NCBI GenBank assembly: GCA_963701075.1
Contig: OY969559.1
Span: 1,630,691 to 1,662,690, forward strand
Reading direction: 5' to 3'
Length of the DNA stretch: 32,000 bases
Source of the DNA: an uncultured Nitrososphaerota archaeon
GTDB taxonomy: Archaea; Thermoproteota; Nitrososphaeria; Nitrososphaerales; Nitrosopumilaceae
The notes below the pieces were generated by a model. The model searched no databases and was not told the DNA's origin. It saw only the letters and a program-made list of their open reading frames with translations. Position 1 is the stretch's first letter. Every line of letters begins with the position of its first letter. The position numbers and the translations under genes were made by a program. Shown here piece after piece: positions 5,956 to 26,517 of the stretch.

Positions 5956-7040
5956 TAGGAGTTACGCAGTTGACCTTCACAAGATAGCCTAAGGATTCAT
6001 TCCATAAATCTTAGATCCAAGACGATCCCCTCTTTGCAATGAACCAATCAAGATGTGATGTACTAGACTACATACAGTTCCTCATAGCATCCCAGAAGAC
6101 CTTTACATGTACAGAGGCTGCAAGATGCCAGCCCGTGGAGCTGTACAAAATCCCATCCCATGACTCCTTTACGCGCCTTCTACAACGACAGACTCAAGAC
6201 ACTGAGACGGTTTGGAAGGAAGCAAAGGCAATGATAGGAAGCGGGGGTGTTATTGTAGTCGACGATACCACTCTTGACAAGCCGTATGCCTCAAAGATGG
6301 ACCTTGTAACATGGCACTGGAGTGGCAAGCACAGATGTGTGGTCAAGGGAATAAACCTCATCACGCTTCTGTGGACAGATGGAAAAAAGCGCGTACCGTG
6401 TGATTGCAGGATCTACGACGCACCTGTCACAGGTCTTACAAAGAACGACCGCTTCCAGGAGATGCTGGTAAAGGCCAGGCAGAGAGGCATGAATCCGCTG
6501 TATGTGCTCTTTGACAGTTGGTACTGCAGCATTGGAAACCTCCATCTTGTCGCAAAGCTTGGATGGTATTTTCTGACAAGGCTGAAAAGCAACAGGACTG
6601 TCAGTCTGAAAGATGGTAAGAACGTGTCAGTGAGTAGCATGGAAATACCAAAGCATGGAAGAACAGTCTACCTCAAAGAGTACGGAACCATAAAGGTATT
6701 CAGGACAGTTTCCAAAAACGGAGACGCTGAGTACTGGGCAACAAACAATCTGTCAATGAATGCGGTAAGAAGGGAGGAGCTTGAAAAACATGGATGGTCA
6801 GTAGAGGTGTATCACCGTGGAATCAAGCAGTGCTGTGGTATTGAAAGGTCGCATGTCAGAAAGGCAAGATCGATAATCAGTCACATACTCTTGTCTGTCA
6901 GGGCTTTTCTGCGTCTTGAGGCATACCGGATAGAGACAGGGACGAGCTGGTATGAGGCAAAGAGTGCCATAATCCGGTATGCGATACGGAACTATCTATC
7001 CCGTCCGTTCTGTCATTTGGGCTCAACTGCGTAACTCCTA
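5956..7040 (+). mobile_element. 1,085-bp insertion sequence (IS4/IS701-like DDE type) with perfect 18-bp terminal inverted repeats
   Basis: IRL at 5956-5973 is TAGGAGTTACGCAGTTGA. IRR at 7023-7040 is TCAACTGCGTAACTCCTA, its exact reverse complement. There is a single transposase ORF, flanked by the ATGGT/ATGGT duplication. Family assignment is not verifiable here. Confidence 0.9.
6039..7034 (+). CDS. DDE transposase
   Basis: 331 aa. Candidate catalytic triad contexts are VIVVDDTTLDKPY, LYVLFDSWYCS and YHRGIKQCCGIERSHVRKARS (YxxR...E...K/R signature as in IS4-superfamily enzymes). The stop codon lies inside the right IR. Confidence 0.85.
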   Translation: MNQSRCDVLDYIQFLIASQKTFTCTEAARCQPVELYKIPSHDSFTRLLQRQTQDTETVWKEAKAMIGSGGVIVVDDTTLDKPYASKMDLVTWHWSGKHRCVVKGINLITLLWTDGKKRVPCDCRIYDAPVTGLTKNDRFQEMLVKARQRGMNPLYVLFDSWYCSIGNLHLVAKLGWYFLTRLKSNRTVSLKDGKNVSVSSMEIPKHGRTVYLKEYGTIKVFRTVSKNGDAEYWATNNLSMNAVRREELEKHGWSVEVYHRGIKQCCGIERSHVRKARSIISHILLSVRAFLRLEAYRIETGTSWYEAKSAIIRYAIRNYLSRPFCHLGSTA

Positions 7041-13942: not shown

Positions 13943-14645
13943 TTGAGGCAAACTCGTAAAGCCCTGAAAAAATATCATGACCAAAATAAACATGGAAAAA
14001 AGAAAGTCATTCCAGAGCCCATTCCTAAAAACATTCTTGAGTTTGTCAAAAATTACAGAATCATAAAAGGACAACCGTACTCGCTCAAAGGACGGGAATT
14101 TCTCATTCAGATATATTTGGATATAGTACAACAGATCAATATAGTTAAGGCAAGGCAGATGGGTCTTACCGAGTTTGCTATGAACTGGCTCTTGTTTCAT
14201 CTTTTGACGTATCAAGGCACATGTGGCTTGTATGTAGCAGATAGGGAATCCCATGTCTTAGCGTTTGCGGACCGCCTCCGTGAAGCTGATACTCAGTTCA
14301 GAGAAGCTAAAGCCGTGGATAGTTAGAATAACAAACGAGAGCGTCAAATTTGCAAATGGTTCAATTCTATACATGATTACGGGTTGGGGCAAGTTTGAAA
14401 AAGCTCGCTCATATCCGGTTGACTTTGCTGTAGTGGATGAGGTCCAGTCACTTGACCTTGAGGGACTGCCTGTGTTAAAGGAAACACTGTCAGCCTCATC
14501 CCACAAGAGACTCGTTGTGATTGGCACAGGCTCTGATCAAGGCGATCTCTGGTGGGATGAGTGGCACCGTGGAACTCAACTTAACTGGGTACCGGCTCAC
14601 GACAACACACCAAGATCTCAGGTATATGCGGCGGGCATAGGCTGA
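13943..14645 (+). pseudogene. large terminase (GpA-like) ATPase domain remnant, frameshifted and 3'-truncated
   Basis: ORF 13943-14326 contains IIKGQPYSLKGREFLIQIYLD...NIVKARQMGLTEFAMNWLLFHL...LYVADRESHVLAFADRL, a GpA-type Walker A region (k.aQ.G.TE..lNw). ORF 14265-14645, in another frame, contains VKFANGS...DFAVVDEVQSL (Walker B). About 235 codons remain in total. The nuclease half is absent. Confidence 0.65.
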
Positions 14646-15483: not shown

Positions 15484-16017
15484 TTACAGGTTACTGGCAT
15501 CCTGACCCATCTGTCTTCTTCGTGTGACAATACCGTGACATGAAGGGCATAATGCTCTACAATTAGATTCGTCATTATTCGATCTATCACTGTCTTTATG
15601 ATCCCAATCCAAAATCGTAAGTAATCTACCACATATGGCGCACTTATGATCCTGTCTACGAATGGTTTTGATTTTTGTTTCCTCTGAGAAATCCAATCGC
15701 GGTATGTTTGTACGATCTTTTCTGATCTTTTTCTTTTTGTTTATTTTCAGGGGTTTGTATAGTTGAAGTAAATCATCTATCTCATTAACCAGTTCTTTAG
15801 TAAATTCTTTTTTTGTAACATTATTTATTTTAAAGAAGTTTGTTTTTACACTATTAATAATAGAAAAAAGATTATGTTGGGATTTTCTTTTAATTATTTT
15901 TTCAGCTGTTTTTTCAGAAAGATTTAAAGAAAAATCATCTGCTTCCCTCCATCCATTTTTGTATAACACATCCCATATTCGCGATTGAATTGATGATTTT
16001 AGATCAGCAAATGTCAA
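15484..16017 (-). CDS. HNH endonuclease with an uncharacterised about 110-aa N-terminal domain
   Basis: The C-terminal His-Me finger is HKCAICGRLLTILDWDHKDSDRSNNDESNCRALCPSCH. The TTG start overlaps the upstream TGA stop (TTGA at 16017-16014). Confidence 0.8.
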   Translation of the reverse strand: MTFADLKSSIQSRIWDVLYKNGWREADDFSLNLSEKTAEKIIKRKSQHNLFSIINSVKTNFFKINNVTKKEFTKELVNEIDDLLQLYKPLKINKKKKIRKDRTNIPRLDFSEETKIKTIRRQDHKCAICGRLLTILDWDHKDSDRSNNDESNCRALCPSCHGIVTRRRQMGQDASNL

Positions 16018-16394: not shown

Positions 16395-16562
16395 TTATTC
16401 CTTAGATTTTGATTGTTTGATGTTTTTCGGAATGAATTCGTATAATGTTTTAGTACTCATTCCAGTAGCTTTCACTATATTTTCTATTGGTATTCCTTGT
16501 TTGACTAGTTGTATTATAAGTAATTTTTTGATAATGTTTAATTCTTTTTGTATATCATCCAT
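16395..16562 (-). CDS. mini-HTH protein, paralog 4 (55 aa, below the ORF-track cutoff)
   Basis: My translation is MDDIQKELNIIKKLLIIQLVKQGIPIENIVKATGMSTKTLYEFIPKNIKQSKSKE. The ATG lies 1 nt after the upstream stop, and its own stop lies 3 nt before the next ATG. Track ORF 16330-16614(+) is the antisense shadow. Confidence 0.5.
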   Translation of the reverse strand: MDDIQKELNIIKKLLIIQLVKQGIPIENIVKATGMSTKTLYEFIPKNIKQSKSKE

Positions 16563-16563
16563 T

Positions 16564-16764
16564 CTAATTCATCTTTCTCACTATTGCATGTACCTTATCT
16601 CTGTCAGTTTTTAGAAAATCCTTTATTTCAGATTCTTTCATACCTATTTTATACAATGTAATTACCTGATTTTTGAAATCGAGATCTTTTATTATATTTA
16701 CAAGTAGAGCTTTTGTTAAAAAGTCAAGTTTATTGGTTAAAATGGAAAACTGATCATCATTCAT
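16564..16764 (-). CDS. mini-HTH protein, paralog 3
   Basis: 66 aa with leader helix KLDFLTKALLVNII, then NQVITLYKIGMKESEIKDFLKTDRDKVHAIV (HTH). It has an ATGA overlap with paralog 2. Confidence 0.55.
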   Translation of the reverse strand: MNDDQFSILTNKLDFLTKALLVNIIKDLDFKNQVITLYKIGMKESEIKDFLKTDRDKVHAIVRKMN

Positions 16765-16961
16765 TTTTTATTCCTCAATTGTGAGAGGGTAGAATTTACA
16801 GTGTTTTGTGTCTTGTCCAAAATTTTTGCTATGTCTTTATTACTTATCCCCAACTTATGTAACAATAAAATTTGTTCGCCTGCATCTTTATCTTTTATCA
16901 ACCCAAATGCGAGGAGTTTGATTATAGTATCCAACTTTTGTAGAGTTTCTTTTTCATTCAT
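16761..16961 (-). CDS. mini-HTH protein, paralog 2
   Basis: 66 aa with KLDTIIKLLAFGLIKDK, then EQILLLHKLGISNKDIAKILDKTQNTVNSTLSQL (LuxR/sigma-70 region 4-like HTH). It overlaps paralog 1 by 8 nt. Confidence 0.6.
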   Translation of the reverse strand: MNEKETLQKLDTIIKLLAFGLIKDKDAGEQILLLHKLGISNKDIAKILDKTQNTVNSTLSQLRNKK

Positions 16962-17184
16962 TTGTTTTCACCTTTTTTGCTTTTGATTTTTCTTTTGCAA
17001 CCATATTAGTGGTCGTATCTAAAATATTGGCAATTTGTTGGTTTTCGTATCCTTGTGAAATGAGATAAATTATTTTCTCACCCATGGTTTTATTTTGAAA
17101 TTTTGATGGACTAAGCAATATTCCAATTATTGTTTCTAGTCTTTTATTAATATCTGTATTTTTCTCCTTACCTGATTCACTCAT
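16954..17184 (-). CDS. mini-HTH protein, paralog 1 (first gene of the operon)
   Basis: 76 aa with RLETIIGILLSPSK, then EKIIYLISQGYENQQIANILDTTTNMVAKEK. Confidence 0.6.
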   Translation of the reverse strand: MSESGKEKNTDINKRLETIIGILLSPSKFQNKTMGEKIIYLISQGYENQQIANILDTTTNMVAKEKSKAKKVKTNE

Positions 17185-17625: not shown

Positions 17626-17817
17626 TTATCCCTTTAACAAATCCGCCAATGTCTTTACTTTGGTTTTTTCGGGTTCTTCACTATTGATTCTATTCATTAT
17701 GGATTCTTTGACAAATGCTGATGGCGTACAACCATGTTTGTTGCAGGCATCAAGTAATTTACTATGTTCGTCTTCGTTTAACTTGGTAGACACAACTTTG
17801 TAGACCATGGTAGACAT
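17626..17817 (-). CDS. ribbon-helix-helix (CopG/Arc-like) protein
   Basis: 63 aa. VVSTKLNEDEHSKLLDACNKHGCTPSAFVKESIMNRI gives a beta-strand plus two helices. The start region is embedded in GGTAGAC repeats. Confidence 0.6.
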   Translation of the reverse strand: MSTMVYKVVSTKLNEDEHSKLLDACNKHGCTPSAFVKESIMNRINSEEPEKTKVKTLADLLKG

Positions 17818-17836
17818 TGGTAGACAGATGGTAGAC
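17785..17836. repeat. five phased (G/T)GTAGAC repeats (iteron/operator-like) spanning the RHH start codon
   Basis: Copies lie at 17785-17791, 17799-17805 (TGTAGAC), 17809-17815, 17819-17825 and 17830-17836, with spacings of 14, 10, 10 and 11 bp. Confidence 0.8.
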
Positions 17837-17861: not shown

Positions 17862-18007
17862 AATTTTGAAAGATCTGAACTCTAAGGTTTACTCACTACA
17901 AACGAGTTCATTGATAAAGAGCAAAAATGGAATCCCCCCTCTTTGTGAGGAAAAACATGCTGTTGTCGTAAAACTTTAAGGGTGACATTTTCGGTGAAAA
18001 TTTTATC

Positions 18008-18562
18008 TTGGGATCTGTATTTGTGTCGCATAGTAAACACGATGTCGATATAGTGAATTATTTTGCCAAAATTTTTGCTAGATTGAAATTACAAGCACAT
18101 TTTATGGAACTAGAGGATCTAGCAGGAAAATATCAAGGTGCTAGAATATCTGACATAATTCGTTCAAATTTTGTTGAAGATACAAAGGCTGTAATAGTTC
18201 TATTAGGAGAAAACCTAGAACATCCTCCAACTCCTACTCCACAATATACGCATAACTGGGTAAATTTTGAAGTAGGTGTAGCAGCGGGTTCTAGCAAACC
18301 TGTGTGGGTTTTTGAAAAATTCGATGAAGTAATCCAATTTCCAATTCCCTATGTAACGGATTATTGTCAATACCATCTAGGCAATGTTGATGAGTTAAGA
18401 GGCATAGCGGATCTTTTAGAAAAACTATATCAACATAACCTTGTTGTCCAACCTGCAAGAATTCTAAAATGTCATCTATGCCAAGCCTCGTTCAGGCAAT
18501 GGAATAAAAATCAGACATGTATTAACTGCCCAGTATGCAGGCAATTCACTTGTGGCAGTTAA
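18008..18562 (+). CDS. TIR-like domain protein with a C-terminal zinc ribbon
   Basis: 184 aa with a TTG start. The N-terminal VFVSHSKHDVDIVNYFAKIF resembles the TIR betaA-alphaA region (vFISHs..D). Further matches are ARISDIIRSNFVEDTKAVIVLLGENL and NWVNFEVGVAAGSSKPVWVF (W...E context with Glu88). The C-terminus KCHLCQASFRQWNKNQTCINCPVCRQFTC provides CxxC...CxxCxxC. Confidence 0.55.
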   Translation: MGSVFVSHSKHDVDIVNYFAKIFARLKLQAHFMELEDLAGKYQGARISDIIRSNFVEDTKAVIVLLGENLEHPPTPTPQYTHNWVNFEVGVAAGSSKPVWVFEKFDEVIQFPIPYVTDYCQYHLGNVDELRGIADLLEKLYQHNLVVQPARILKCHLCQASFRQWNKNQTCINCPVCRQFTCGS

Positions 18563-25860: not shown

Positions 25861-26517
25861 ATGCCTTCCACTAAATCAAAAATTCACGTCCCAGATGGTT
25901 CTGACAGCATCCTGGCAGAAATAGAGCTCCTGAAATCAAAGAGAAAGAAAATCGAAAAGGATTTTGAACGACTACGCAGCAAACTTCTTAACAGAAAAAA
26001 AGTATACAAAATCAATTCATCCAATTGGGAGGATTGGAAAAAGTTAAGCATTGAATACGATGAAATCGAACAAATCATGAAGGATATCGATGAAAAGCTA
26101 CTAACTTTAAAAGGGCTCCAAGAAAAACTTCTAAAAAAACATATAAAATCAATCAATGAGACAAAAACTATCAAAATAAAGCGAGTATATGAAAAATACA
26201 AAAAAGACGATGGTTTTAGAATATTAATAGACAGGTTATGGCCACGAGGTTTAAGCAAAAACAAATCAAAAGTGGATTTATGGTTAAAAGATATTGCTCC
26301 AAGTGATGAATTGAGAAAGTGGTTCTCTCATGATCCTAAAAAATGGGATGATTTTAAAATGAAATACAAAAAAGAATTGAAAAGTAAACTAGAGCTAATT
26401 AGGAAGGTTGAACAAATAGAAAAAGAGAAAGGAATTGTTACGCTTCTCTACTCTGCAAAAGACGAAGAACACAACAACGCAATGGTTCTGAAGGAGATCC
26501 TAAAAAACAGAAAATGA
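25861..26517 (+). CDS. DUF488 family protein with a Lys/Glu-rich N-terminal extension
   Basis: The C-terminal about 115 aa, [60 protein letters not shown]...Y..EL, matches the DUF488 pattern. The first about 100 aa are heptad-like and K/E-rich. An internal start is possible. Confidence 0.7.

What the first reader, a model, noticed from the sequence alone, without database searches (positions are those of the whole stretch)
18008..18562. Stand-alone TIR-like domain fused to a zinc ribbon, adjacent to the mobile module: candidate archaeal defence effector
The N-terminal 130 aa follow the TIR pattern: VFVSHSKHD, then a helix, then AVIVLLGEN, then NWVNFEVGVAAG, then PVWVF. Glu88 sits in the W...E context, at roughly the position where, from memory, prokaryotic TIR NADases carry their catalytic Glu. 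The C-terminus carries a CxxC...CxxCxxC ribbon that could sense nucleic acid or mediate oligomerisation. None of the usual partners is nearby: no ThsA-like SIR2/SLOG, Argonaute, STING or cyclase gene. It is either a minimal single-gene system or works with the neighbouring RHH/HTH/HNH genes. To my knowledge no TIR-based immunity has been characterised experimentally in ammonia-oxidising archaea.
Basis: partly seen in the sequence, partly recalled or inferred. Interest (0 to 1): 0.7.

Follow-up and report, generated by a model that had tools for sequence, protein, structure and literature searches.

The report
Stand-alone archaeal TIR–zinc-ribbon defence candidate
This Nitrosotalea gene encodes a small, previously unannotated protein with an NAD-cleaving-type TIR immune domain fused to a zinc ribbon; it belongs to a sizeable, so far archaeal family that sits alone in defence and mobile-element islands, making it a credible but untested single-gene antiviral candidate.

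Summary
ORF 18008-18562 (+), 184 aa, TTG start, is a real gene, recorded at NCBI as a hypothetical protein of Nitrosotalea sp. It has about 70 close homologs and about 500 family representatives. An AlphaFold model (pLDDT 93.8) matches solved TIR domains best (SPARTA TIR-APAZ, TIR-STING, ThsB2, SpbK, AbTir). A family profile hits mainly TIR chains in the PDB (E 1.7e-4) and no NDT enzymes. W84 and E88 are invariant and align with AbTir's functional WxxxE motif (W204/E208). Wider-family members carry Pfam TIR_2 hits, and one is named a TIR protein by NCBI. The C-terminal ribbon has four conserved Cys (CxxC...CPxC), so it holds one zinc site and is not a RING. No ThsA, Argonaute, STING or cyclase gene was found nearby. 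Across 64 non-redundant loci no neighbour family recurs in more than two. Of 11 annotated contexts, 7 hold known defence genes, 3 hold mobile-element genes and 1 is housekeeping. The most likely function is a self-contained TIR NADase acting in abortive-infection-type immunity, with the zinc ribbon as sensor or assembly module. Activity, trigger and product are all untested. It is a new variant of a known kind, of moderate interest.

The parts
18008..18562 (+). Complete gene for the 184-aa TIR-zinc-ribbon protein (TTG start; stop codon included)
   Evidence: ORF list. The identical 184-aa product is called in two NCBI Nitrosotalea MAGs. 70 homologs share the same N-terminus.
18008..18445 (+). 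TIR-like catalytic domain (residues 1-146): strand 3-7, helix 13-26, strand 29-32, helix 43-52, strand 59-66, helix 78-94, strand 99-104, strand 118-122, helix 127-142
   Evidence: AlphaFold2 model with pLDDT 93.8 and pTM 0.90. Foldseek top PDB hits are TIR domains. A3 profile hits on solved TIRs at E 1.7e-4 to 5e-3.
18017..18043 (+). First-strand and following-loop motif VFVSHSKHD (residues 4-12); F5 invariant, S7/H8/S9/D12 nearly invariant
   Evidence: Alignments A1 and A3. It aligns with the 'FISHS..D' start of AbTir, SpbK and 8btn.
18257..18271 (+). WxxxE motif on the third (C) helix: W84 (18257-18259) to the putative catalytic E88 (18269-18271)
   Evidence: Invariant in A1, A3 and A4. 206 of 216 family sequences have WxxxExG. 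It aligns with AbTir 'DWTNYEL', whose W204/E208 are the functional residues (PMC10641520).
18455..18559 (+). C-terminal four-Cys zinc ribbon (residues 150-184): C155-x2-C158 ... W165 ... C174-P-V-C177-R178
   Evidence: C155, C158, C174, P175, C177 and R178 are invariant. 173 of 183 full-length members have C..C...CxxC. The model shows short beta hairpins at pLDDT above 80. Only weak, half-RING-like profile hits.
17970..17981 (+). Possible archaeal BRE/TATA-like element (AAAACTTTAAGG) about 30 nt upstream of the start codon, which would imply a leaderless or near-leaderless mRNA. This is inference only.
   Evidence: Read directly from the sequence. No tool covers archaeal promoters, and the sigma-70 scan is not informative.

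Best explanation
The gene encodes a self-contained, single-protein immune effector of the TIR class. Shown by the searches: the N-terminal 146 residues adopt a TIR fold, and the C-helix carries an invariant WxxxE motif (W84/E88). This motif aligns with the one that binds and cleaves NAD+ in AbTir and is conserved across enzymatic TIRs such as SARM1. Inferred: the protein is normally inactive. During virus or mobile-element invasion a cue promotes TIR-TIR oligomerisation, either sensed directly by the C-terminal four-Cys zinc ribbon or acting through ribbon-mediated assembly. Oligomerisation completes the composite active site around E88. NAD+ is then hydrolysed or cyclised, which depletes NAD+ and/or makes a cADPR-type nucleotide and arrests the infected cell (abortive infection). 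Also shown: no partner gene is needed in cis, and the gene moves as a single unit among defence and mobile-element islands of Nitrososphaerota and other archaea.
For: Fold: the AlphaFold2 model has pLDDT 93.8 and pTM 0.90. Foldseek top PDB hits are SPARTA TIR-APAZ, TIR-STING, EcThsB2, SpbK, MyD88, BtpA and AbTir (E 1e-4 to 3e-2, probability about 1.0). Sequence: PADLOC ThsB models score E 5.6e-5 and 1.2e-4. The broad N-terminal profile A3 hits mainly TIR chains (8btn 1.7e-4, SpbK 6.3e-4, AbTir 8.8e-4, SARM1 4.9e-3) and no NDT chain among 48 hits. Wider-family members carry precomputed Pfam TIR_2/PF10137, and one is named a TIR protein by NCBI. ThsB_TIR exceeds its gathering score in P0151. Catalytic motif: W84 and E88 are invariant at every depth of alignment and are aligned to AbTir W204/E208. 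Stand-alone status: no partner in the window. No neighbour cluster occurs in more than 2 of 64 non-redundant loci. Defence context: of 11 annotated neighbourhoods, 7 hold recognised defence genes: HEPN/AbiV, BrxC/D-like ATPase with methylase, two type I RM systems, a DISARM-like helicase-PLD-DUF1998 trio, an OLD-like ATPase, and McrBC/Vsr/UvrD-PDDEXK. Three hold mobile-element genes and one is housekeeping. In bulk, transposases, type I RM subunits, HEPN_AbiV, integrases and GajB-like helicases top the neighbour list. Distribution is patchy: only 8 loci among 185,579 species genomes, though that scan was limited to two peptide patterns.
Against: There is no biochemical or phenotypic evidence of any kind. 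The window protein itself is well below Pfam's TIR thresholds (13 bits against 28). Query-normalised TM-scores are modest (0.41-0.52). Related flavodoxin-like folds (PurE, DNPH1, viral NDTs) appear only slightly lower in the lists. Defence-island association is counted from 11 annotated contexts without a formal genome-wide background. One context (L006) lies between housekeeping operons. Not all TIR domains are enzymes. Neither the role of the zinc ribbon nor any oligomerisation was tested. An unlinked effector elsewhere in the genome cannot be excluded.
Confidence: 0.5

Rival explanations
1. It is an orphan ThsB-like signal generator. The TIR domain senses infection and makes a cADPR-isomer or His-ADPR-type messenger. 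That messenger activates an effector (ThsA-like SIR2/SLOG, Macro or other) encoded elsewhere in the genome, so the gene is half of a split Thoeris-like system rather than a self-sufficient effector.
For: The best defence-library matches are ThsB models. EcThsB2 is among the top structural matches. ThsB_TIR passes its cut-off in a distant member. The protein is small, as ThsB proteins are, and has no obvious second effector domain.
Against: No ThsA-type gene lies in the 32-kb window or recurs among 456 neighbour ORFs of 64 loci. The one nearby SIR2 (L001, 239 aa) has only the SIR2 domain and sits among housekeeping genes. From established knowledge, characterised Thoeris systems keep thsA and thsB adjacent.
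Confidence: 0.17
2. It is a non-immune nucleotide or nucleoside N-glycosidase or transferase of the NDT/DNPH1-like branch of the same fold superfamily. It would act in nucleotide salvage or detoxification, with the zinc ribbon as a structural appendage.
For: The E88 region (FEVGVAAGxxKPVWVF) gives weak Pfam Nuc_deoxyrib_tr hits in 28 of 50 members (best E 0.006). DNPH1 and viral NDTs appear among the fold matches. Two contexts include NAD or nucleotide metabolism genes: NAPRTase and NUDIX in L005, and PRPP synthase in L001.
Against: NDT scores are far below the cut-off (13 against 28.8 bits). The family profile hits 20 or more TIR chains and no NDT or DNPH1 chain in the PDB. The N-terminal FxSHSxxD motif is TIR-type. 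The patchy distribution, single-unit mobility and defence or mobile-element neighbourhoods are not what a salvage enzyme shows.
Confidence: 0.08
3. It is cargo of the adjacent provirus or mobile element. It would serve the element through superinfection exclusion, addiction, or counter-defence such as destroying host signalling nucleotides or NAD+, rather than serving as a host-owned immune gene.
For: In the window it abuts a decayed provirus remnant: terminase fragments, HNH, HTH and RHH genes. Other copies are flanked by transposases (L003, L005) or lie near a solo Cas1 with a recombinase-type HTH gene (L016).
Against: There are no relatives in 2.9 million IMG/VR viral contigs and no meaningful PHROGs match. 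No att repeats, tRNA or integrase link it to the remnant. Most other copies sit beside host-type defence systems, not inside virus genomes. Superinfection exclusion would in any case use the same TIR mechanism.
Confidence: 0.12
4. It is a non-enzymatic TIR scaffold. The domain would mediate protein-protein assembly, as animal TLR/MyD88 TIRs do, with the zinc ribbon binding a nucleic acid or protein partner and no NAD+ chemistry.
For: MyD88 and TLR TIRs are among the structural and sequence matches. The ribbon shows weak half-RING-like similarity.
Against: The catalytic-type Glu and the preceding Trp are absolutely invariant across a family that otherwise diverges to about 25% identity. That is the pattern expected of an active site. 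There is no conserved partner to be scaffolded.
Confidence: 0.07

Closest known systems
Bacterial TIR NADases with the C-helix WxxxE motif (AbTir of Acinetobacter baumannii; BtpA/TcpB)
   Same: Same fold. The same FxSHxxxD first-strand motif. The same W-x3-E motif, aligned residue for residue. In AbTir, W204/E208 bind substrate and E208A served as the inactive control (PMC10641520).
   Different: Sequence similarity is only at profile level (E about 1e-3). This family replaces the helix after the fourth strand with a conserved FPIPYVTDY loop, adds a C-terminal four-Cys zinc ribbon, has no N-terminal coiled-coil region, and is archaeal where sources give a taxon.
Thoeris ThsB (TIR-like, Pfam PF08937; EcThsB2 structure 8v6t)
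   Same: It is the best match in the defence-system library (PADLOC ThsB1, E 5.6e-5). It is a structural match. Size is similar, and both are TIR-only enzymes without a second catalytic domain.
   Different: No adjacent ThsA effector in the window or in any of 64 loci. ThsB has no zinc ribbon. The Thoeris membership test therefore fails on operon architecture.
SpbK (Bacillus subtilis ICEBs1 single-gene TIR abortive-infection protein; 9phb)
   Same: A single-gene TIR defence protein in which a non-TIR part of the same polypeptide does the sensing. It matches by both structure and profile (E 6.3e-4). It is the closest functional analogy for a one-protein sensor-effector. SpbK's biology is stated from my own knowledge.
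   Different: SpbK is 290 aa with an N-terminal sensing region before the TIR. Here the extra module is a 35-aa C-terminal zinc ribbon. There is no sequence relationship outside the TIR core.
SPARTA TIR-APAZ, TIR-STING and CRISPR-associated Cat1
   Same: They include the top Foldseek hits (SPARTA and TIR-STING; Cat1 appears). These TIR NADases are activated by oligomerisation, which is the mechanistic model adopted here.
   Different: Those TIRs are fused to or partnered with APAZ/Argonaute, STING or CARF sensors and depend on guide nucleic acids or cyclic nucleotides. None of those modules or partner genes is present here.
Archaeal TIR NADase TcpO of Methanobrevibacter olleyae (Essuman et al. 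2018, Curr Biol)
   Same: It is the precedent that archaeal TIR domains can cleave NAD+. This is from my own knowledge; the paper could not be read here.
   Different: It comes from a different archaeal phylum and has a different architecture. It was not compared here because no sequence was available.

Membership tests
TIR domain superfamily (Pfam TIR_2 PF13676 / ThsB_TIR PF08937) | Flavodoxin-like alpha/beta fold with a five-stranded parallel sheet that superposes on solved TIR domains | tested here: met
   AlphaFold2 model at pLDDT 93.8 with five strands alternating with helices. The top Foldseek PDB hits are TIR domains at probability 1.0, E 1e-4 to 3e-3.
TIR domain superfamily (Pfam TIR_2 PF13676 / ThsB_TIR PF08937) | Significant sequence or profile match to TIR models | tested here: met
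   The window protein alone is sub-threshold in Pfam (TIR_2 13 bits against 28). However, PADLOC ThsB scores E 5.6e-5. The family profile A3 hits mainly TIR chains in the PDB from E 1.7e-4. Distant members reach TIR_2 27.6 bits and ThsB_TIR 23.0 bits against a 21.2 cut-off. Many wider-family members carry precomputed PF13676. The feature is met at family level, not by the single sequence.
TIR domain superfamily (enzymatic TIRs) | Catalytic Glu on the C helix within a WxxxE motif | tested here: met
   W84 and E88 are invariant in A1, A3 and A4. 206 of 216 sequences have WxxxExG. The motif aligns to AbTir W204/E208.
TIR domain superfamily (enzymatic TIRs) | NAD+ glycohydrolase or cyclase activity that depends on the Glu and on oligomerisation | not testable with these tools
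   This needs purified protein, E88A and W84A mutants, and product analysis.
Thoeris defence system | thsB adjacent to a thsA effector gene (SIR2-SLOG or TM-Macro) | tested here: not met
   No such gene in the window. None recurs in 64 loci and 456 neighbours. The single SIR2 near L001 is a 239-aa SIR2-only protein among housekeeping genes.
SPARTA / CBASS TIR-STING / Pycsar TIR effectors | Partner Argonaute, STING domain, or an adjacent nucleotide cyclase | tested here: not met
   These domains are absent from the protein and from the neighbours.
Nucleoside 2-deoxyribosyltransferase / DNPH1-like (Pfam PF05014) | Profile match above the family threshold and relatedness to solved NDT/DNPH1 enzymes | tested here: not met
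   13 bits against a 28.8 cut-off, matching only a 20-residue stretch. The best in the family is E 0.006. No NDT or DNPH1 chain is among 48 PDB profile hits. Fold-level resemblance exists (DNPH1 E 2.7e-2, viral NDTs about 1e-3), as expected for the shared superfamily.
RING finger (C-terminal module) | Eight zinc ligands in a cross-brace binding two zinc ions | tested here: not met
   Only four Cys are conserved (C155, C158, C174, C177). Profile hits to RINGs cover only the second half (E about 5e-3, Cys-biased). The model shows beta hairpins typical of a zinc ribbon.
DUF4062 TIR-like NADases (Swarozyc; bioRxiv 10.64898/2026.05.01.722283) | Match to Pfam DUF4062 | tested here: not met
   No DUF4062 hit for the window protein at E up to 10, and none among the 25 most frequent families over 50 members.

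The most novel reading that the evidence does not exclude
The family could be the smallest self-contained sensor-effector TIR immune protein yet seen, at about 185 aa. The 35-residue zinc ribbon would itself recognise a viral nucleic acid or protein and nucleate TIR filament assembly. That would give ammonia-oxidising and other archaea a one-gene, horizontally mobile NAD+-based abortive-infection system that is absent from current defence catalogues. Alternatively, it could emit a new TIR-derived signal read by an effector not yet recognised.
Probability: 0.3. Interest if true: 0.65.

Novelty: new variant of a known kind. Interest (0 to 1): 0.5.

Why it matters
Ammonia-oxidising archaea drive a key step of the global nitrogen cycle, and to my knowledge their antiviral repertoire is largely uncharted. 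In the searchable literature here, TIR domains in Thaumarchaeota appear only in passing, as 'eukaryote-like' domains. This work delimits a family of about 500 clusters, archaeal where sources give a taxon, whose Nitrosotalea clade is invisible to Pfam. It shows that the family carries the enzymatic TIR signature and that it travels alone through defence islands. If confirmed experimentally, it would add a minimal single-gene TIR system to the archaeal immune repertoire. It would also offer a compact model for how a tiny accessory module switches on a TIR NADase. If it turns out to be an ordinary TIR NADase, the gain is a corrected annotation for several hundred hypothetical proteins.

Tried and rejected
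- Single-sequence phmmer against the PDB gave only noise (DNA ligase, E 0.23).
- The full-length family profile was dominated by Cys-biased RING hits.
- The narrow N-terminal profile A2 found nothing. Only the broadened profile A3 reached the TIRs.
- A conserved convergent 120-aa downstream gene was suspected from the window and L001. It was rejected because the two share no similarity.
- A link to the 239-aa SIR2 near L001 was rejected as a ThsA candidate: it has the SIR2 domain only, sits in a housekeeping context, and is not recurrent.
- Viral origin: no relatives in IMG/VR and no meaningful PHROGs family.
- Element boundaries: no tRNA, no att-like direct repeats, and no integrase in the window.
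- Rfam found nothing in the window.
- The bacterial promoter scan was uninformative for an archaeon.
- Source names for divergent members were absent. The taxonomic range therefore rests on the few named hits: Nitrosotalea, Thaumarchaeota, Nitrososphaerota, Bathyarchaeota, Hadesarchaea and one 'Micrarchaeota' MAG.
- Essuman et al. 2018 could not be read.

Full report
**Observation.** The ORF exists exactly as described: 18008-18562 on the + strand, 184 aa, with a TTG start. The TTG start is supported in two ways. Homologs begin at the same position. Two NCBI metagenome-assembled genomes call the identical 184-aa product, named 'hypothetical protein WAN47_00210 [Nitrosotalea sp.]'. That also confirms the ammonia-oxidising-archaeon origin. 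The gene is not a chance ORF. The large protein database holds 70 homologs at E 1e-19 to 1e-121, and none has a precomputed Pfam domain. An exhaustive profile search of 1.84 billion cluster representatives finds 498 relatives at E<=1e-3 and 338 at E<=1e-10. Most of those listed keep the same two-domain form of about 190-220 aa.

**Conservation.** In 50 close homologs (42-79% identity) the invariant residues are E34, L66, W84, E88, G90, E103, P112, Y119, C155, C158, C174, P175, C177 and R178. In a broad N-terminal alignment that reaches 25% identity, the invariants reduce to F5, T81, W84, E88 and P114. S7, H8, S9, D12, G90 and A92 are nearly invariant. In 38 divergent full-length members the four ribbon cysteines remain invariant or nearly so. 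Across the 216 sequences collected, 206 have WxxxExG, and 173 of the 183 that are at least 170 aa have the C..C...CxxC pattern. The conserved ribbon is a four-Cys CxxC...CPxC(R), which is one zinc site. C171 and C182 of the window protein are not in the invariant or >=90% lists.

**Is it a TIR domain?**
- The single sequence is well below Pfam thresholds: TIR_2 13 bits against 28, ThsB_TIR 12.4 against 21.2, Nuc_deoxyrib_tr 13 against 28.8. It does match PADLOC ThsB models at E 5.6e-5 and 1.2e-4.
- An AlphaFold2 model built on the family alignment is very confident (pLDDT 93.8, pTM 0.90). It shows strands alternating with helices, followed by short ribbon hairpins.
- Foldseek against the PDB returns TIR domains first: SPARTA TIR-APAZ, TIR-STING, EcThsB2, SpbK, MyD88, BtpA and AbTir. 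Other flavodoxin-like folds (PurE, DNPH1) follow only slightly lower. Against viral models, TIR and nucleoside 2-deoxyribosyltransferase proteins are mixed at E about 1e-3.
- Sequence profiles separate the two branches of the superfamily. The broad N-terminal profile hits 8btn 'TIR domain-containing protein' (1.7e-4), SpbK (6.3e-4), AbTir (8.8e-4), 7uxr (1.3e-3), SARM1 (4.9e-3), TLRs and Cat1. No NDT or DNPH1 chain is among its 48 hits.
- The printed alignments place the family's W84/E88 on AbTir 'DWTNYEL' and on 8btn 'LWMPWELG'. [quoted passage not shown] They contact the substrate analogue, and the E208A construct served as the inactive control (PMC10641520).
- Divergent members reach TIR_2 at 27.6 bits and exceed the ThsB_TIR cut-off. 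Many wider-family proteins carry precomputed PF13676/PF10137, and NCBI names one 'toll/interleukin-1 receptor domain-containing protein [Candidatus Bathyarchaeota archaeon]'.
- Conclusion: the domain is a divergent but genuine TIR domain with the enzymatic signature. The Nitrosotalea clade is a branch that current models miss.

**The C-terminal module.** Profile hits to Cbl-b and RNF8 RINGs (E about 5e-3) and to Prok-RING_4 and IBR in some members cover only the second half of a RING (C..C..W..CPxCR) and are cysteine-biased. With four conserved ligands and predicted beta hairpins, the module is a single-zinc ribbon, not a RING.

**Partners and context.**
- Pfam scans of the 40 largest window ORFs found no SIR2/SLOG, Macro, Argonaute, STING or cyclase gene.
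- Upstream lies a decayed provirus remnant. Two ORFs (13943-14326 and 14265-14645) are frameshifted fragments of one terminase large subunit, matching phrog_675 positions 22-101 and 125-210 of 576. Beside them are an HNH endonuclease (15484-16017), several small HTH genes and a divergent RHH gene.
- Downstream are a membrane or secreted protein gene, DUF202, a PEFG-CTERM protein, TFB and a TPP enzyme.
- There is no tRNA, att-like repeat or integrase to tie the TIR gene to the remnant.
- The 11 distinct annotated contexts break down as follows:

| Context type | Count | Loci and genes |
|---|---|---|
| Recognised defence genes within about 7-8 kb | 7 | L001: HEPN_AbiV, HEPN, DUF4145. L003: BrxC/D-like ATPase and N6/N4 methylase between two transposases. 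L007: type I RM plus helicase and methylase. L017: DISARM-like DEAD helicase, PLD and DUF1998. L018: type I RM plus a small HNH. L019: OLD-like TOPRIM ATPase. L020: McrBC, Vsr and C5 methylase, UvrD-PDDEXK |
| Mobile-element genes only | 3 | L005: transposase. L016: solo Cas1 and an HTH_7 gene. The window: provirus remnant |
| Between housekeeping operons | 1 | L006 |

- I then clustered 456 neighbour ORFs from 64 non-redundant loci. No neighbour family occurs in more than two loci.
- In a bulk scan of 148 neighbours no Pfam family exceeds 3 occurrences. The recurrent families are mostly transposases, integrases, type I RM subunits, HEPN_AbiV, UvrD/GajB-like helicases and mad2, with a few housekeeping types.
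- The close family was found in only 8 loci among GTDB species genomes, although that scan was limited to two peptide patterns. The taxa were Thaumarchaeota, Nitrosotalea, Nitrososphaerota, one Micrarchaeota MAG and one Bathyarchaeota. It was found in no IMG/VR viral contig.
- This is the pattern of a horizontally mobile, stand-alone accessory gene that lands in defence islands.

**Mechanism.**
- Shown: the TIR fold, the invariant WxxxE aligned to a validated catalytic pair, the conserved four-Cys ribbon, the absence of a conserved partner, and the defence and mobile-element neighbourhoods.
- Inferred from established TIR biology (SARM1, AbTir, SPARTA, TIR-STING, SpbK): the protein is an NAD+-cleaving enzyme whose composite active site forms on oligomerisation. 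The ribbon supplies the sensing or assembly function that separate domains or partners supply in other systems. Activation during infection depletes NAD+ and/or emits a cADPR-type product, arresting the cell.
- Confidence: about 0.9 that it is a TIR-fold protein with a catalytic-type Glu, about 0.6 that it is defence-related, and about 0.5 for the full stand-alone NADase model.
- Rivals are an orphan ThsB-like signal generator with an unlinked effector, provirus or mobile-element cargo, an NDT-like metabolic glycosidase, and a non-enzymatic scaffold. Each is set out with its own tests in the rival-explanations section.

**Comparison with what is known.** It works most like single-polypeptide TIR abortive-infection proteins such as SpbK. 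By sequence it is nearest to ThsB/TIR_2-type bacterial TIRs. It fails Thoeris membership because ThsA is absent. It fails SPARTA, CBASS and Pycsar membership because the partners are absent. It also fails NDT, RING and DUF4062 membership. Searches of the held literature found no description of a TIR-zinc-ribbon family or of TIR-based immunity in ammonia-oxidising archaea. TIR domains in Thaumarchaeota are mentioned only in passing, as 'eukaryote-like' domains. An archaeal TIR NADase precedent (TcpO; Essuman et al. 2018) is cited from my own knowledge, because the paper was not readable here.

**Verdict.** This is a new variant of a known kind: a TIR NADase-type immune domain in a new, compact, stand-alone architecture. 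Interest is moderate at 0.5. It would not surprise a specialist, because TIRs are common in prokaryotic defence, but the family is well defined, experimentally tractable and currently unannotated, in an ecologically important archaeal lineage.

Noticed in passing
window 17785-17836: Five copies of (T/A)GGTAGAC(A), most about 10 nt apart, straddle the start codon of the divergent RHH/NikA-like gene (17626-17817, minus strand). They look like an operator or iteron array of the mobile module rather than part of the TIR gene.
   Followed up: partly
window 13943-14645 (+): Two overlapping ORFs (13943-14326 and 14265-14645) are frameshifted fragments of one terminase large subunit (phrog_675 positions 22-101 and 125-210 of 576). 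With the HNH endonuclease at 15484-16017 (-) and a row of small HTH genes at 16395-17184 (-), this is a decayed tailed-provirus remnant in a Nitrosotalea genome.
   Followed up: partly
window 18455-18559 (residues 150-184) and family alignment A1: The ribbon motif C-x2-4-C-N-A-x-Y-x2-W-x6-8-C-P-V-C-R resembles the second half of a RING finger. Hits include Cbl-b and RNF8 RINGs at E about 5e-3 and Pfam Prok-RING_4 at 8.4e-5 in some members. Only four ligands are conserved, so it may be a half-RING or treble-clef derivative.
   Followed up: partly
P0166, P0195, P0177, P0199 (wider family); P0196; P0208: Some family members have extra parts: unannotated N-terminal extensions of about 135-190 aa (P0166 and P0195 are clearly related to each other), a C-terminal cupredoxin/plastocyanin-like domain (P0196), or a roughly 330-aa C-terminal extension (P0208). 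These fusions might point to sensors or localisation.
   Followed up: no
L001 7089-7997 and 8587-8949; L016 5202-6098 and 7566-7964: Two loci share both an unannotated roughly 300-aa gene upstream and a 120-132-aa convergent gene downstream of the TIR gene. This is the only hint of a locally conserved mini-neighbourhood, and it is absent from the other 62 loci.
   Followed up: partly
L016 3642-4625: A solo Cas1 gene lies next to an HTH_7 recombinase-type gene and large unannotated genes, about 2.4 kb upstream of a family member. This may be a casposon-like element in a thaumarchaeal contig.
   Followed up: no
L007 7385-7954 and L027 5364-5930: An RNase_H_2 (PF13482) gene sits 47 bp upstream, divergently oriented, of the TIR gene in two otherwise different loci.
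   Followed up: no
window 25861-26517 (+): A DUF488 protein (Pfam DUF488-N3 subclades) with a roughly 100-aa N-terminal extension. It appears unrelated to the finding.
   Followed up: no
window 6039-7034 (+): A DDE transposase (DDE_Tnp_1 / ISC1217-like) lies next to a histidine kinase. This insertion sequence is a second sign of mobile DNA in the window.
   Followed up: no
window 17932-17956 (-): A terminator-like hairpin followed by a T-run lies on the minus strand in the intergenic region just upstream of the TIR gene. Its significance in an archaeon is unknown.
   Followed up: no
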